The notes beneath the pieces are model-generated. The model was not told the origin of the DNA, did not search any database, and worked only from the letters and a program-made list of their open reading frames with translations. Shown piece after piece: positions 45 through 47,080 of a DNA stretch of 48,156 nucleotides. Position 1 is the first letter of the stretch, and every line of letters starts with the position of its first letter. Source of the stretch: a virus (Duplodnaviria > Caudoviricetes); IMG/VR virus record IMGVR_UViG_3300042196_000043, positions 1 to 48,156 of that record. One strand, given 5' to 3'. Both the position numbers and the translations under genes were made by a program.

Positions 45-320
45 ATGGAACTGAAGCCATGCCCGTTCTGTGGTGGCCCCGCGAAAGAGGTCGTTGGTCT
101 TGTCGGGTGCGAACCGTGCGCCATTGGGCGTCGCAACGCGGCATCGTGGAACACCCGCGCTCCCGACCCCATCCACGCGCAGCTTATTGCGGCGCTGGAG
201 GGTGCAATGGATGAATTGGCTGAACTGCTGATCACGCTCAGCAGGGACCCGCTCGACAACGACCCATTCCGGCAGGCCCGCGCAACTCTCGCAGCCGTTA
301 CCGGCGGTAAGGTGGAGTAG
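45..320 (+). CDS. Lar-like (restriction alleviation family) zinc-ribbon protein, copy 2
   Basis: MELKPCPFCGG...CEPC...WNTR pattern; GGAG RBS; same protein as 47797-48072. Confidence 0.7.
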   Translation: MELKPCPFCGGPAKEVVGLVGCEPCAIGRRNAASWNTRAPDPIHAQLIAALEGAMDELAELLITLSRDPLDNDPFRQARATLAAVTGGKVE

Positions 321-1769: not shown

Positions 1770-2036
1770 ATGGGTGAAGACAAGATCGAGGGTAGCGACT
1801 TCGTGTCTACCGCCGACTTCCGGCGCCAGTGTGTGGAAATGAACTTCTGCAACGGCTTCGACACCGCCGCCCTGGAGAAGACCAGCCTGCGGGAGGTGAT
1901 CGCGGAGCTTCGGCGCATCACGGACCATTTAGATGTGTGGACGAAAGACCGCCCGGAGGACTGCACGACAGAAACCTTCGCGGCGATCCACTGCGCCCGC
2001 GCCCTGCTCAAAACCCTCGGAGGCGATAATGGGTGA
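1770..2036 (+). CDS. Hypothetical protein
   Basis: AGGAGGAG RBS. Confidence 0.65.
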   Translation: MGEDKIEGSDFVSTADFRRQCVEMNFCNGFDTAALEKTSLREVIAELRRITDHLDVWTKDRPEDCTTETFAAIHCARALLKTLGGDNG

Positions 2037-2388
2037 ACTGCTGCCATGTCCGTTCTGTGGCGAGCCGGCAGAGGCTATCACTGGCGAGCGTTTATTTACC
2101 GTTCGCTGCGTCGATGGCTGCGCCGAGATGTGTTCGTCAATTGATGACTTTCCCTATGAGGAATACGCCATCAACGCATGGAACGCCCGCCCCTCCCCCG
2201 TCTCCTGCGGGCACTGCGAAGAGATGGAACGGCTGGCCGACAAGCTAGCCTCGTGGGAGGACATGATCGAAAGCTGCGCCGGTGTGGTGAACACCCCCGA
2301 CAGCCTGCCCCAAATGCTGCTGGTGGAAATCAGCACTCTCCGGGCCGAACTCCGCGCCCGCGCCGCCCGCACGGGAAAGGATGGCTGA
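2029..2388 (+). CDS. Second Lar-like zinc-ribbon protein
   Basis: LLPCPFCGE...CVDGC...AINAWNAR; GGAGG RBS. Confidence 0.7.
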   Translation: MGELLPCPFCGEPAEAITGERLFTVRCVDGCAEMCSSIDDFPYEEYAINAWNARPSPVSCGHCEEMERLADKLASWEDMIESCAGVVNTPDSLPQMLLVEISTLRAELRARAARTGKDG

Positions 2389-7909: not shown

Positions 7910-8197
7910 TTACTCCTTGGTGGTGAAGATGTTAGAAAGGTCCACGCCCACCGCCTTCGCTACTTTGCGAAGCAGGGCAACCTTATCCTCCATCTCGCAG
8001 TTCGGCTGGCCGGTGCGCTCGTCGTACTCCTTGGCGCGCTTCAGAAGGGCTTTCATCTCCTCCACGTCACGCCTTAGAGCGTCGAACTCTTCTCGGCTTA
8101 TGGTCGGCTGGTTTGGCGCGTAAGTAAAAATCCGCTGCAGGTCGAATTGCTGCCACTTGTCTGAATAGTGATCGCCAACCGCTGAAACGGCACACAT
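7910..8197 (-). CDS. Hypothetical coiled-coil protein
   Basis: AAGGAG RBS. Confidence 0.65.
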   Translation of the reverse strand: MCAVSAVGDHYSDKWQQFDLQRIFTYAPNQPTISREEFDALRRDVEEMKALLKRAKEYDERTGQPNCEMEDKVALLRKVAKAVGVDLSNIFTTKE

Positions 8198-8200
8198 GGG

Positions 8201-8404
8201 TTACTCCTTCGTCTCGGACTTGACGCCAGCGCGCAGCGCCATGAGGCCCAGGCCGCCGAGGATTTCCGGCAACTGGTCGATGAGCTGCACGAGGGTTGTG
8301 TCTCCAACGGCCCAGGAGGCGACGGCCTGCGCCGCCAGCAGGAAGCCGAGGATGTAGGTACGAGACCCGGCGAGGAAGCCGCCGGAGAAGATGTGCATCA
8401 GCAT
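8201..8404 (-). CDS. Holin-like small two-TM protein
   Basis: G.RTYI.G motif, two hydrophobic helices, charged C-tail (ALRAGVKSETKE). Confidence 0.65.
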   Translation of the reverse strand: MLMHIFSGGFLAGSRTYILGFLLAAQAVASWAVGDTTLVQLIDQLPEILGGLGLMALRAGVKSETKE

Positions 8405-8439
8405 TGCTTGATTCCTTCAGTGGTGGTAGGATTTCTGTT

Positions 8440-8567
8440 GGTGCGGTAGTGGGGTGCCTAACCAGCGCCTCCGCTGCGTAGCTCAATTGGATAGAGCGCC
8501 GGCAAAAGCGGGTGGTTCCGTGAGTACCTAGGTGGTTGCCGGTTCGAGTCCGGCCCAGCACCGCACC
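8440..8567 (+). ncRNA. tRNA-like structured RNA (D and T arms, no canonical anticodon arm)
   Basis: TTGCTT-N17-TAGGAT promoter (8404-8432); TAGCTCAATTGGATAGAGC and GCCGG-TTCGAGT-CCGGC; closing stem GGTGCGGT/ACCGCACC. Confidence 0.7.
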
Positions 8568-9082
8568 TACTCTCCCGGCAGCAGCCTCTCCAGCGACACC
8601 GGCTCGGTAGCCTCCAGGCTTTCCCAAGCCCGTCCCGGCCCTTCCCAGGCTATCCAGGCGTAGTGTTCCCAGTTGTCGCTATCGAGCGGCCAGCAGCCGG
8701 TTATGTTGCAGCACAGCATGGTTCCTGCGTCGGTCTCGATTGCCAGCAGCATGTGCCCTCTCTCGCCCATGTCGCAGATTACCAGCCGGAGCGCGTCCTC
8801 CGGCAGGCCGGCGGCAACAAGGGTGCGACGGAGCATGGGAGCAAAATCGTTACAGTTGCCCTTGAAAGCGCTGCGGCCCGAGGCTGTCGTGAAGGGCTCG
8901 GCGCAGTCCCACTCGGTATCCGGCTTGGGATCGAACTGCCACCGGGCCATGAGGTCGCGGAACTCGCGCAGCACCAGCGCATTTTTCTCCGCGTCCCATG
9001 GTATGAGAACGGCATTGCGCAGGTACATTTCGCGGGCGGCCTGTGGCGTGGGGATTGGGCGGGTGCCGCGGAAGTGCTTCAT
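8567..9082 (-). CDS. Transglutaminase-like cysteine protease (BTLCP/peptidase C93, LapG-like)
   Basis: GNCNDFA..LRR.L.AAGLP..ALRL...GHMLLAIETD.G...CCN resembles the GDCEDYA...GHAVL...LDN family pattern. Confidence 0.75.
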   Translation of the reverse strand: MKHFRGTRPIPTPQAAREMYLRNAVLIPWDAEKNALVLREFRDLMARWQFDPKPDTEWDCAEPFTTASGRSAFKGNCNDFAPMLRRTLVAAGLPEDALRLVICDMGERGHMLLAIETDAGTMLCCNITGCWPLDSDNWEHYAWIAWEGPGRAWESLEATEPVSLERLLPGE

Positions 9083-9219: not shown

Positions 9220-9564
9220 TCAGAACAGCGCCCGGTCAAAGCCGTGATGCCGGCAGGCTTGATCCGCGAGGCGCTGCCAGACGGCCCCGTGCTGGGTGCG
9301 GTCGCCAAGCATCTCTTGGCGAAGGTGGCAGACCTCATGGGCCATGACGGGGATCAAAGTTCCGGTCTGCACGATGCAGCGCCGAGATACGCCAATCTGG
9401 TGGCGTGGGTTCTTGAATTTGTACTCCCCGCGCGACTTGGCCCAATCCCCTATGTAGAACCGGACCTCGCTGCCATGTGGCAGCCCCCATCGTTTGAACG
9501 GCAGCGTAGCCCTCAGATACTCATAGGCAGCCGCCAGAACGTCAGGGGTGAGCTTTAGCGCCAT
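9220..9564 (-). CDS. SprT-like zinc metallopeptidase
   Basis: MAHEVCH (HExxH) plus downstream HGAVWQ. Confidence 0.75.
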   Translation of the reverse strand: MALKLTPDVLAAAYEYLRATLPFKRWGLPHGSEVRFYIGDWAKSRGEYKFKNPRHQIGVSRRCIVQTGTLIPVMAHEVCHLRQEMLGDRTQHGAVWQRLADQACRHHGFDRALF

Positions 9565-9838
9565 TGCCGGCCTTCCGCCTGTCGATACACATGACCGCCG
9601 TGCGGGCGTAGCCAGCAATGTCTATCCAGGAATCAACGTGGTTCGGAGTGTGGATCAGCCGAGCCAGCTTGACGCAGATCATCTCCATGGCGTGCCTGAC
9701 GACAGGGTCCTGACACTCGGCCACAACTGCCTTCAGGGCATCGGCTCGCATGAAGTCGTCTAGCGGGTGCCCGTAGACGGCGCCCCGGTCCTGAGTGACG
9801 CGCTGAATAGCAGCGTCAAACTCCTCCAGCGGGGTCAT
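9542..9838 (-). CDS. DUF6378-like protein
   Basis: DRG.VYGHP.D.F...MI.VKLARL...H.DSW.DIAGYA. Confidence 0.75.
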   Translation of the reverse strand: MTPLEEFDAAIQRVTQDRGAVYGHPLDDFMRADALKAVVAECQDPVVRHAMEMICVKLARLIHTPNHVDSWIDIAGYARTAVMCIDRRKAGNGAKAHP

Positions 9839-32649: not shown

Positions 32650-32869
32650 TGCCCTCTTTCGCCTCGTAGAAGTAGTTCGCCTCCAGATCGGCCAGATATG
32701 CTGCGTGGTCAACGGTCTCCTCGTTTAAGATGCTGGCGGCCTTGGCCAAGTCGAAGAGGCCGTCAAGCCCGGCCGTCTTTCCGTCGTCATCCAGGCCGCA
32801 AGCGCAAACGTCAATCCGAGACTCGGCCAGCGCGGCAAGCAGGCTCTCGGCCGTGATGCCGCCACTCAT
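32642..32869 (-). CDS. Hypothetical protein
   Basis: ATGA overlap with the GroES stop. Confidence 0.55.
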   Translation of the reverse strand: MSGGITAESLLAALAESRIDVCACGLDDDGKTAGLDGLFDLAKAASILNEETVDHAAYLADLEANYFYEAKEGND

Positions 32870-33291
32870 CCCAGCACCGCGCAGATATCGGAATCGTTGC
32901 ACAGGCGGTACTCTTCGCCGTCGTCGCCCTTGGTCACGATGCCGGCATACTTGGCGATGAGGACGCGCTGGCCGGGGCTGGGCTTGGAGCCCTTCACCTC
33001 GCAAAAGGCATTCTCGCCCACAGCTACCAGCGTAGCGCGGCACTCCGCCATCCCGCGCCGCTCTCGTTCCTGGTCCGGAATGAAAATGCTGCCAATCTTG
33101 TCCGCTACGGCGTCCGGCTTCACCAGAACGCGCAGGTCAAGCGGATTGATCCCGCTCGGGTTCTTCATCGTCGCCGGACCGCCGGTCACTGCCCATTTAG
33201 ACTCGGGCGCGAGTCCCATATCTTTCTTGATCTTGCCCACCGCCTCATCCATCTCATTCCGGGTGATCGGGACCACCATCTTCGTCTTCAT
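32866..33291 (-). CDS. groES: GroES-like co-chaperonin
   Basis: INPLDLRVLVKP...SIFIP...LVAVG...GQRVL.AKYAG...GEEYRL.NDSDI.AV. Confidence 0.85.
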   Translation of the reverse strand: MKTKMVVPITRNEMDEAVGKIKKDMGLAPESKWAVTGGPATMKNPSGINPLDLRVLVKPDAVADKIGSIFIPDQERERRGMAECRATLVAVGENAFCEVKGSKPSPGQRVLIAKYAGIVTKGDDGEEYRLCNDSDICAVLG

Positions 33292-45852: not shown

Positions 45853-46109
45853 CAATGCACCCTCCCCTTCACCGGCAGCGAGTAAACGTTCGCGCCTTCG
45901 ACGGCACCGCCGCACCATGCGTCATCCTCTTCCGGGATGCGCCCACCTGAGAAGAGGGCGCACAGCCCCGCCGCCGCAATGCCTGCTGCCTGCACCGCGA
46001 ACGCAGCAGCAGCCCAGCCGATGCCGAGAAAGACGGCCGCCAGAAGGATCACGCCGAAGCCCACCGCAAGGCCGCAAAACAGGATGAGGTATGCAAGGAT
46101 GGTTCTCAT
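45852..46109 (-). CDS. Membrane protein
   Basis: Long hydrophobic stretch; GAGGAG RBS. Confidence 0.6.
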   Translation of the reverse strand: MRTILAYLILFCGLAVGFGVILLAAVFLGIGWAAAAFAVQAAGIAAAGLCALFSGGRIPEEDDAWCGGAVEGANVYSLPVKGRVH

Positions 46110-46449
46110 GTCAGGCTCCTCACAAAGGGGGCCCCGACTGCCGGGGGGCGACAGCCGGGGCCAGTGGTCGCCAGCGCGCAGGGGATGGCGCGGCGCTTCG
46201 CCGGCAGGGAGGCGCCGGGAAGAGGGTTGCGCGATTTAGCGGTAATCCGTTGTCGCGTTTGGTTTGCCGGGCTGGGTATGCCTACATCCCGGGCCATGGA
46301 CGAACCAATCGCATTTGTGACATTTTGTGGGCATTCCATGCTTGCGCCGTTTACTCCAAAGCGAGTAGGCTTCTGGAAAGCACGCACAGAACGTGCGGTC
46401 ACAGGAGATGGCAGCAGGAGGTTCGCCCCGATATGGCAGGAAAGCGCCA

Positions 46450-46662
46450 CTACTCCCCTCCCCGGCTTGTCTGGGATAATCCGAAGAAGTCTTCCGCCGT
46501 CACGGCGCCTTTGGTCGCTCGGTACAGGCCCTCCAAGGACCCCCTTGACGGGAAGCGCTCGCCGTTGCGCCAGCGGTTCACCGAAACCCGAGACACCTTC
46601 AGCAGGTTGGCCAGGGCTTTCTCTGAAAGGCCATGCTCGGCCATGTACTCGTTGAGCGTCAT
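46450..46662 (-). CDS. cro: Cro-like HTH repressor
   Basis: MTLNEYM...S...LA..L.VS..SVNRW.NG.RFP....T.GAVT..DF; divergent from cI. Confidence 0.85.
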   Translation of the reverse strand: MTLNEYMAEHGLSEKALANLLKVSRVSVNRWRNGERFPSRGSLEGLYRATKGAVTAEDFFGLSQTSRGGE

Positions 46663-46670
46663 GGGAACAA

Positions 46671-46687
46671 TGTACCTAGACGGTACA
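46671..46687. promoter_or_regulatory. Operator OR inside PR (- strand TTGCGC-N17-TACATT; leaderless cro)
   Basis: TGTACC-TAGAC-GGTACA; extra half-site at about 46706. Confidence 0.8.
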
Positions 46688-46756
46688 ATTAGCGCAACAG
46701 GAAAATGTACCCCGCCCGTCGTGGCGGGAACCCTGGATTTGTCGCAAAGTCATGGC

Positions 46757-47080
46757 ATGGAAAAGCGGCCCAACAGAATCGCTGAGTGGCGCAAGGCCAA
46801 GCGGATGAGCCAGGAGCGCCTGGCCGAGCTGTGCGGCACCACCCATGCCACGATCAGCCGGCTCGAGCGCGGCAAGCTTCCTCTGTCAGAACACTGGCTC
46901 CGCACGATAGGCCGCGTCCTGCGCGTCTCCATGGCCGACCTGCTAGTGGCCGAGGAGCAGGAGGCGCTGGAGAGCGCCGCCGACCTTGCCCGCGATATCC
47001 TGGCCTCCCTCCCGCACGAGCAGCGCCGCCAGTGGCTCGAAATGGGCGAGGCCCTAGCCTTCCGGCAGAAGGCGTCTTAA
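46757..47080 (+). CDS. cI: CI-like XRE repressor without an S24 peptidase domain
   Basis: NRIAEWRKAKRMSQERLAELCGTTHATISRLERG; 107 aa; flanked by operators. Confidence 0.82.
   Translation: MEKRPNRIAEWRKAKRMSQERLAELCGTTHATISRLERGKLPLSEHWLRTIGRVLRVSMADLLVAEEQEALESAADLARDILASLPHEQRRQWLEMGEALAFRQKAS

What the first reader, a model, noticed from the sequence alone, without database searches (positions are those of the whole stretch)
8404..8567. tRNA-elbow mimic without an anticodon arm
Seen: a canonical D arm (TA-GCTC-AATTGGATA-GAGC, 8479-8497) and T arm (GCCGG-TTCGAGT-CCGGC, 8538-8554). Between them are about 40 nt with a 4-nt AAAA-loop hairpin and a second hairpin instead of a 7-nt anticodon loop. 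The acceptor-like pairing is imperfect and there is no CCA. The unit has an extra 5' hairpin, is closed by a perfect 8-bp GGTGCGGT/ACCGCACC stem, and has its own promoter. The intact elbow and added helices argue against simple decay. Known: tRNA-like modules occur in YrlA Y RNAs and tmRNA, and many defence systems and toxins target tRNAs. Inference: a decoy or scaffold for tRNA-binding proteins (anticodon nucleases, RelA, RNase P, Ro60).
Basis: partly seen in the sequence, partly recalled or inferred. Interest (0 to 1): 0.78.

Follow-up and report, generated by a model that had tools for sequence, protein, structure and literature searches.

The report
Loop-locked tRNA-shaped phage RNA family
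An uncultured phage carries a predicted 128-base RNA that keeps the corner of a tRNA but has paired ends and no anticodon; it belongs to a small phage family I could not find described, whose two conserved loops (CUAACCA and GUGGU) likely pair to lock it into a stable, non-decoding tRNA look-alike, possibly a decoy for host tRNA-binding factors.

Summary
The element is real: 8440-8567 (+), with tRNA D and T arms, ends closed by 8 bp, and no CCA or anticodon. It is not a decayed tRNA. Pattern scans of viral contigs gave 10 further members (50-72% pairwise identity among the 10 aligned sequences) with one architecture: a hairpin with loop YUAACCA inserted into the acceptor stem, and a long anticodon-position arm capped by RYGGY. 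Of 24 pairs, 17 show compensatory change, and the Levitt 15-48 pair covaries. ACCA and UGGU are complementary in 38 of 40 cells but never covary, so the loop-loop kiss is inferred. Phages sharing the flanking genes lack the RNA, so it is an accessory insertion. Eight of 11 members lie near terminase or portal genes; this one does not. Best reading: a self-locked, elbow-presenting decoy, analogous to T4 rnaC. Rivals: a pRNA-like ring, or a catcher of tRNA CCA ends. It is not YrlA or tmRNA. Expression is untested. The scan noted other anticodon-less tRNA mimics on other DNA, but no look-alike of this one.

The parts
8404..8432 (+). Promoter-like site TTGCTT-17-TG-G-TAGGAT, overlapping the start codon and ribosome-binding site of the divergent holin-like gene; predicted +1 near 8440
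   Evidence: Sequence. Weak: 7/12, background 6.9%, not listed by the scan. Same spacing in L323 (8/12) and L174 (TTGACA-17-TATATG, read by eye).
8440..8567 (+). Predicted 128-nt tRNA-shaped non-coding RNA (whole unit)
8440..8447 (+). P1a 5' strand; pairs with 8560-8567 and closes the ends (8 bp)
   Evidence: An end-closing helix of different sequence is seen in the other members.
8451..8471 (+). P2 hairpin (7 bp) inserted into the acceptor stem; loop CUAACCA at 8458-8464 begins with a YUNR motif
   Evidence: 6 of 6 P2 pairs show compensatory change. Loop is YUAACCA in 11 of 11 (fixed by the search pattern for 8 of the 10 relatives). YUNR: PMC6562991, passages.
8473..8478 (+). P1b, inner acceptor stem (GCTG-C-G with 8555-8559; one bulge)
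   Evidence: 5 of 5 pairs show compensatory change
8479..8497 (+). U8, A9 and D arm with A14, A15, G18, G19
   Evidence: A15 pairs with U48 (8537); 15-48 is G-C in 8 and A-U in 2 aligned members, and A-U in L279.
8498..8532 (+). Remodelled anticodon-position arm: short lower stem, CAAAA/GAGUA internal loop (loop-E-like, inferred), 4-bp P5 stem, apical loop GUGGUU at 8512-8517 complementary to AACCA of the P2 loop
8533..8554 (+). Variable loop and canonical T arm (TTCGAGT loop)
8555..8567 (+). 3' strand of P1b and P1a; ends paired, no CCA; last base abuts the stop codon of the BTLCP gene on the other strand
8201..8404 (-). Neighbour: holin-like small membrane protein (67 aa; named from its hydrophobic profile and position, no family hit)
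8567..9082 (-). Neighbour: transglutaminase-like cysteine peptidase (BTLCP, PF06035)

Best explanation
This is a tRNA-shaped phage element with paired ends and no CCA or anticodon, predicted to be transcribed as a 128-nt RNA whose CUAACCA loop likely pairs with its own GUGGU loop, giving a closed, probably nuclease-resistant triangle that would present an intact tRNA elbow as a decoy for host elbow-reading factors. Shown: the helices, the conserved tRNA core, the absence of CCA and anticodon, the co-conservation and complementarity of the two loops, and accessory insertion. Inferred: transcription from the weak promoter; that the arm's internal loops (loop-E-like here, kink-turn-like in other members) bend or twist it towards P2; that the kiss forms within one molecule; resistance to RNase P, CCA addition and charging; and the decoy role (candidates RNase P, tRNA-modifying enzymes, ribosomal L1 stalk, elbow-reading defence proteins).
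For: Family of 11; 50-72% identity among the 10 aligned. 96.2% of cells pair, 17 of 24 pairs change on both sides, 0 of 500 shuffles reach it, slid controls give 39-43%. Levitt pair: 8 G-C and 2 A-U. A scan fixing only the second loop found YTAACCA upstream in 7 of 11 elements with that loop on a stem of 3 bp or more, against 0 of 79 others; 2 of the 7 were new loci. ACCA/UGGU pairs in 38 of 40 cells and both central C-G pairs are invariant; chance of such a 4-nt complement is 0.028. The P2 loop starts with YUNR, which presents the next bases for pairing (PMC6562991 passages). Different internal-loop modules sit at the same place in the arm (read by eye; motif consensus recalled). T4 rnaC has two complementary hairpin loops beside a T arm.
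Against: No covariation in the kiss: 0 of 4 pairs change on both sides, and two members each break one outer A-U pair. No member with other loop sequences turned up. Alignment A6 was fitted to the model, so its pair counts lean towards it. The family fold of the window is 13.5 kcal/mol above the MFE in ViennaRNA (-46.7 vs -60.2), although fixing only the D and T arms costs 3.8. The held-out window scores 59 bits with R1 while ordinary or other odd tRNAs reach 54. L178 and L279 have altered T loops, which weakens a strict elbow-decoy role. There are no expression data, no terminator and no partner gene common to all members.
Confidence: 0.45

Rival explanations
1. The loops pair between molecules, hand in hand, giving a ring or oligomer like phi29 pRNA, possibly linked to head assembly or DNA packaging.
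For: phi29 pRNA uses AACC with GGUU between neighbours, and NMR saw only the two central G-C pairs (PMC2241910 passages). This family has AACC(A) and (U)GGU(U), with the two C-G pairs invariant. Terminase or portal genes lie within about 2.5 kb for 8 of 11 members, against 3 of 24 ordinary phage tRNA loci (Fisher p 0.0008).
Against: The window copy is about 25 kb from the portal gene and antisense to the late genes. It is missing from phages with the same flanking genes, so it is not essential. These phages have terminase-type motors, not the phi29 type. The controls were not matched for lifestyle, and the start of the late operon is a common place for RNA genes (own knowledge).
Confidence: 0.17
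2. The UGGU loop catches the 3' NCCA end of uncharged host tRNAs in trans, as the T-box antiterminator bulge does, or the CUAACCA loop is a decoy for CCA-reading toxins; either would damp stringent-response or tRNA-end-based defences.
For: UGGU is the complement of ACCA. The window arm reads GGGUGGUUCCGUG, close to the T-box consensus (recalled). Kink-turn and loop E modules also occur in T-boxes (PMC4919913 passages). Invariant loops without covariation fit binding to an unchangeable outside partner.
Against: The T-box antiterminator cannot bind the tRNA end unassisted (PMC4919913 section 3.2), and this RNA has no specifier or double T-loop domain. L199 has CGGU, which mismatches A76. An internal ACCA has no free 3' hydroxyl. 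Rfam gave no T-box hit.
Confidence: 0.15
3. It is an antisense or cis regulator of the neighbouring late genes (lysis here), with the tRNA body serving only as a stabilising frame.
For: In the window it is antisense to the late transcript and its promoter-like site overlaps the holin-like start. L323 is antisense between terminase and portal.
Against: 8 of 11 members are on the sense strand and their neighbours differ, yet the loops are the same. The RNA does not overlap the holin ribosome-binding site. No second CTAACCA or TGGTTAG target exists elsewhere in this genome.
Confidence: 0.1
4. It is a decayed or scrambled tRNA gene with no function.
For: Rfam tRNA barely passes; odd tRNA-like genes are common in phages (about 1700 stored stretches match a long-middle pattern); weak promoter; the family fold is not the MFE.
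Against: Non-tRNA features (P2 loop, apical loop, three-way junction) are conserved across 11 divergent phages with compensatory change. None of 4 relatives has an intact tRNA at this site.
Confidence: 0.05
5. It is a precursor that is cut, given CCA and charged like an unusual tRNA, as M. smegmatis YrlA is cut and receives CCA.
For: M. smegmatis YrlA is cut by RNase P and receives CCA (PMC4201824 passages).
Against: The same paper ties cleavage to a 7-bp acceptor stem. Here P1b is 3-6 bp and opens into a three-way junction. There is no anticodon loop.
Confidence: 0.05

Closest known systems
Phage T4 rnaC (species 1 RNA, T4s001)
   Same: Phage RNA of similar size (139 nt) and unknown function (PMC9697503 passages), with a T arm, paired ends and two hairpins with complementary loops (UUGACG/CGUCAA).
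   Different: No TAGCTCA D arm, other loops with a 6-nt complement, lies in a tRNA operon; scores 13.3 bits with R1 and 11.5 with R2. An analogue, not a member.
Phage T5 RNA1 and RNA2 (annotated 'tRNA-like stable RNA with unknown functions')
   Same: D and T arms kept, anticodon arm replaced.
   Different: No inserted acceptor hairpin and no YUAACCA loop; 8.5 and 19.7 bits with R2; lie in tRNA arrays.
YrlA Y RNA (RF02553)
   Same: tRNA-like D/T elbow in a non-decoding RNA; occurs in phages (PMC4201824 passages).
   Different: YrlA has T, then acceptor-like stem-loop, then D; here D precedes T. No GNCGAAN0-1G motif, 15 bits vs 69, no Ro60 gene.
phi29 prohead RNA (pRNA)
   Same: AACC/GGUU loop complement with two central G-C pairs (PMC2241910 passages).
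   Different: pRNA has no tRNA body and is essential to a phi29-type motor; this RNA is accessory, in terminase-encoding phages; no Rfam pRNA hit.
Canonical bacterial tRNA (RF00005) and tmRNA
   Same: U8, A9, D arm, T arm, Levitt pair.
   Different: No 7-bp acceptor with NCCA, no 7-nt anticodon loop, no tag frame; ARAGORN finds neither.

Membership tests
Canonical tRNA (RF00005) | D arm and T arm with conserved elbow bases | tested here: met
Canonical tRNA (RF00005) | 7-bp acceptor stem ending in NCCA | tested here: not met
   5-bp bulged P1b, three-way junction, paired ends
Canonical tRNA (RF00005) | 5-bp anticodon stem with 7-nt loop | tested here: not met
Canonical tRNA (RF00005) | Aminoacylation | not testable with these tools
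   Bench test
YrlA Y RNA (RF02553) | Rfam score over 69 bits; order T, AS, D | tested here: not met
   15.0 and 13.2 bits; D precedes T
YrlA Y RNA (RF02553) | GNCGAAN0-1G motif and a Ro60/TROVE gene | tested here: not met
   Motif absent; TROVE in 0 of 1 own genome and 0 of 5 member records; the host genome is unknown
tmRNA | Alanine acceptor with CCA and a tag reading frame | tested here: not met
   ARAGORN 0 genes; no Rfam hit
T4 rnaC | Two hairpins with complementary loops next to a T arm | tested here: met
   Complementary loops in both; the pairing itself is untested
T4 rnaC | Shared sequence and structure model | tested here: not met
   13.3 bits with R1; no D-arm motif, no TAACCA
T5 RNA1/RNA2 | Shared architecture | tested here: not met
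   8.5 and 19.7 bits with R2; no YTAACCA
phi29 pRNA | AACC/GGUU complementary loops | tested here: met
   AACC at 8460-8463 and GGTT at 8514-8517; GGU in most relatives
phi29 pRNA | Intermolecular ring bound to the prohead and needed for packaging | not testable with these tools
   Context is suggestive for 8 of 11 members but not for the window
T-box riboswitch | Stem I with specifier loop, antiterminator/terminator, upstream of amino-acid genes | tested here: not met
   No Rfam hit; neighbours are phage genes
New CUAACCA/GUGGU family (this report) | P1a, P2 with YUAACCA loop, P1b, D arm, long arm with RYGGY loop, T arm | tested here: met
   All parts present; the held-out window scores 59 bits with a model built from 4 other members

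The most novel reading that the evidence does not exclude
Probability: 0.17. Interest if true: 0.9.

Novelty: new variant of a known kind. Interest (0 to 1): 0.66.

Why it matters
Phage tRNA-like RNAs (T4 rnaC, T5 RNA1 and RNA2) are still annotated as of unknown function. This family gives an unusually sharp handle: a 128-nt RNA with a covarying tRNA core and two short invariant complementary loops that can be broken and repaired by four-base swaps in vitro. That makes the question 'decoy, ring or tRNA catcher' directly testable. It also suggests that loop-loop locking of a tRNA frame arose more than once in phages. tRNA finders miss it or would likely label it a pseudo-tRNA.

Tried and rejected
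Direct relatives by DNA: an exact 27-nt pattern in viral contigs gave 0. BLAST of the window element or of members against cultured phages and plasmids gave no record covering 80% of the query; the best plasmid hit was an ordinary tRNA-Arg. BTLCP found no confirmed locus in viral contigs; the DNA around its 87% and 85% relatives could not be fetched. Cellular genomes: no member in 127 genomes of the order or 401 of the class of Pelagibius; the matches viewed were ordinary tRNAs or chance. Loop variants, wanted for covariation of the kiss: none in a loop-free scan (109 loci, 79 distinct), in a descriptor scan of 168 long-middle elements, or in model searches. A CCG anticodon inside the arm (tRNA-Arg origin) was considered and dropped: it is not conserved in relatives. 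The 186-aa frame 8067-8627 (-) over the RNA has no Pfam hit and no tblastn hit in relatives. A temperate lifestyle is not shown: no tyrosine or serine integrase family hit. Searches scanned the holin-like gene in a wrong frame; this was redone, with no family hit. No sequencing reads were examined, so expression is open.

Full report
Setting. The window is a whole virus record of 48,156 bases with direct terminal repeats. It encodes terminase, portal, P22-like head closure and ejection proteins, RecE/RecT-like and RusA-like proteins and an HTH repressor-like protein. No tyrosine or serine integrase family was found, so a temperate lifestyle is not shown. The BTLCP gene beside the element has relatives in Pelagibius and Kiloniellaceae genomes, which hints at an alphaproteobacterial host; the nearest cultured terminases are about 50% identical and come from Pseudoalteromonas and Vibrio phages, so the host is uncertain.

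Observation. The D arm, T arm, 8-bp closing stem, 5' hairpin and missing CCA are at the stated coordinates. ARAGORN calls no gene. Rfam tRNA scores 29.4 bits at 8473-8560 and skips 30 central bases. The unit 8440-8567 folds with z -2.45. It fills the gap between the BTLCP stop (8567) and a holin-like gene (8201-8404), on the strand opposite the late genes. The promoter-like site scores 7 of 12, which 6.9% of random positions reach; the scan tool did not list it and found no terminator here.

Accessory insertion. Four loci with a BTLCP relative were fetched. None has the RNA or a tRNA directly after the gene. In L035 the downstream lipoprotein is 86% identical to the window's, yet the next gene starts 16 bases after the BTLCP stop; in L036 the two genes overlap.

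Finding the family. A broad pattern for D and T arms with a long middle returned 120 of an estimated 1700 stretches. Two of them had an upstream hairpin with the window's loop CTAACCA. A pattern fixing that loop and the D arm gave 88 loci; 8 distinct ones had a 5-9 bp stem round the loop, a long middle and a second shared loop RYGGY (L160, L167, L174, L178, L181, L199, L227, L244). The rest were ordinary tRNAs or chance. A pattern fixing only the second loop gave 107 loci, 90 distinct. Of 11 with that loop on a stem of 3 bp or more, 7 had YTAACCA within 35 bases upstream, against 0 of the other 79. Five of the 7 were known members and the pattern was drawn from them, so the independent evidence is the two new loci, L323 and L279. 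The family is thus 11 with the window. It was not found in 127 plus 401 alphaproteobacterial genomes or in cultured phages and plasmids. In 4 of 5 member records tested it is the only tRNA-model hit; the fifth gave none.

Structure. A model from 4 members scores the held-out window at 59.0 bits and the other held-out members at 42-71; non-members reach 54, so score alone separates thinly and membership rests on the motifs. In the model-fitted alignment of 10 (L279 left out) pairwise identity is 50-72%, and the window is closest to L323 (72%) and L174 (68%). 96.2% of cells pair and 17 of 24 pairs change on both sides, including all of P2 and P1b; 0 of 500 shuffles reach this, and slid controls pair at 39-43%. 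The alignment leans towards the model. The Levitt pair is G-C in 8 and A-U in 2, the window among them (10 of 500 shuffles), and A-U in L279, so the tertiary core is under selection. The acceptor end is a three-way junction: inner stem P1b, hairpin P2 and outer helix P1a. The anticodon-position arm is one long hairpin. Read by eye (motif consensus recalled), its internal loop is loop-E-like in the window, L174, L323 and L227 and kink-turn-like in L167, L178, L181, L199 and L244. Against this: ViennaRNA puts the family fold of the window at -46.7 against an MFE of -60.2 (no terms for loop E, kissing or tertiary contacts). Fixing only the D and T arms costs 3.8 kcal/mol, and L181 folds into the family structure unaided.

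The two loops. ACCA of P2 and UGGU of the arm pair in 38 of 40 cells; the two central C-G pairs never vary, and nothing covaries. The window can form five pairs (AACCA/UGGUU). An unrelated 5-base loop would offer such a 4-base complement with probability 0.028. [quoted passage not shown] Searches for members with other loops failed. The kiss is therefore likely, not shown.

Context. Terminase or portal genes lie within about 2.5 kb for 8 of 11 members (L167, L178, L181, L199, L227, L244, L279, L323), against 3 of 24 ordinary phage tRNA loci (p 0.0008). The controls were picked by hand, not matched for lifestyle, and only their six longest frames were scanned; L244 and L279 were judged on longer stretches. 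Eight members are on the sense strand, two of them right after a Q-like antiterminator gene. The window, L323 and apparently L174 stand alone on the antisense strand behind promoter-like sites (7, 8 and, by eye, 10 of 12). No protein gene is shared by all members.

Mechanism. I commit, at 0.45, to a self-locked monomer. P2 leaves the acceptor helix close to the core, and the bent arm brings UGGU to ACCA, closing the L into a triangle with paired ends and leaving the elbow as the main tRNA-like surface. RNase P, the T-box and the CCA-adding enzyme measure from the elbow (PMC4919913, passages and section 3.2); an RNA with an elbow but no cleavable leader or free 3' end would bind such factors without being turned over. 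Transcription, the kiss, resistance and the partner are all inferred. Altered T loops in L178 and L279 count against a strict elbow role. Rivals: a pRNA-like ring (0.17; phi29 pRNA uses AACC with GGUU and only its two G-C pairs were seen by NMR, PMC2241910 passages); a catcher of tRNA CCA ends (0.15); an antisense regulator (0.10); decay (0.05); a processed tRNA (0.05).

Comparison with what is known. It is not YrlA: 15 bits against 69, no GNCGAAN0-1G, no TROVE gene, and the arm order differs (PMC4201824, passages). It is not tmRNA or a T-box. Its function is given as unknown (PMC9697503, passages). T5 RNA1 and RNA2 lack the inserted hairpin. The allo-tRNAs and E-loop tRNAs of Mukai et al. have anticodons (PMC5389517, passages and one section; figures not seen).

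Novelty. Eight paper searches (listings and abstracts) showed no description of this family. The library lacks most subscription papers. Fremin et al. predicted 10,006 viral structured RNAs (PMC10690425, passages); a supplement search for the loop and four contig ids found nothing, but three of six held files were not searched and three more could not be read, so the family may be among their unnamed models. A 2026 preprint shows that RNAs under 200 nt can form oligomers (10.64898/2026.07.01.735769, first fifth read); the families it names are others. This scan has noted many anticodon-less phage tRNA mimics but no look-alike of this sequence or motif. Verdict: a real, selected, apparently undescribed family within a known kind (non-decoding tRNA-like phage RNAs); interest 0.66.

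Noticed in passing
L265:1574-1699 (-), L277:1950-2074 (-), also L267, L332, L351: A second group of tRNA-like elements with a 9-10 bp hairpin, loop CUCAACA, next to a full 7-bp acceptor without CCA; L265 and L277 lie between a late regulator and the small terminase gene. It keeps UGGUGG in the middle. Possibly a sister family; scores only 34 bits with R1.
   Followed up: partly
L279:1959-2082 (-): Divergent member with an extra hairpin between P2 and P1b and a UGAAAGU T loop, directly after a Q-like antiterminator gene.
   Followed up: partly
L328:about 150-285 (+): Odd element with CTAACCA, no normal D arm and the same T arm as the window, upstream of another abnormal tRNA-like gene.
   Followed up: no
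L002, L005; L014, L023, L030, L031; L010, L033; L040, L068, L109, L143; L042, L127, L189; L046, L066, L081, L128, L158: Several other recurring groups of phage tRNA-like genes with intact acceptor, D and T arms but a replaced anticodon arm, each with its own shared motif.
   Followed up: no
window 8440-8478: The 5' strand of P1a can also pair with the segment just after P2 (the MFE does this). A similar alternative looks possible by eye in several members; it may be a folding intermediate or a switch.
   Followed up: partly
whole window: Complete genome with a lambdoid-like layout and a repressor-like HTH gene (46091-47080) but no integrase family hit.
   Followed up: partly
window 32866-33291 (-), 9220-9618 (-), 1933-2388 (+): GroES-like, SprT-like and Lar-like genes.
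   Followed up: no
L323:1216-2130 (G529): The large terminase gene appears in two frames with an HNH gene between them, and the RNA sits antisense between terminase and portal.
   Followed up: no
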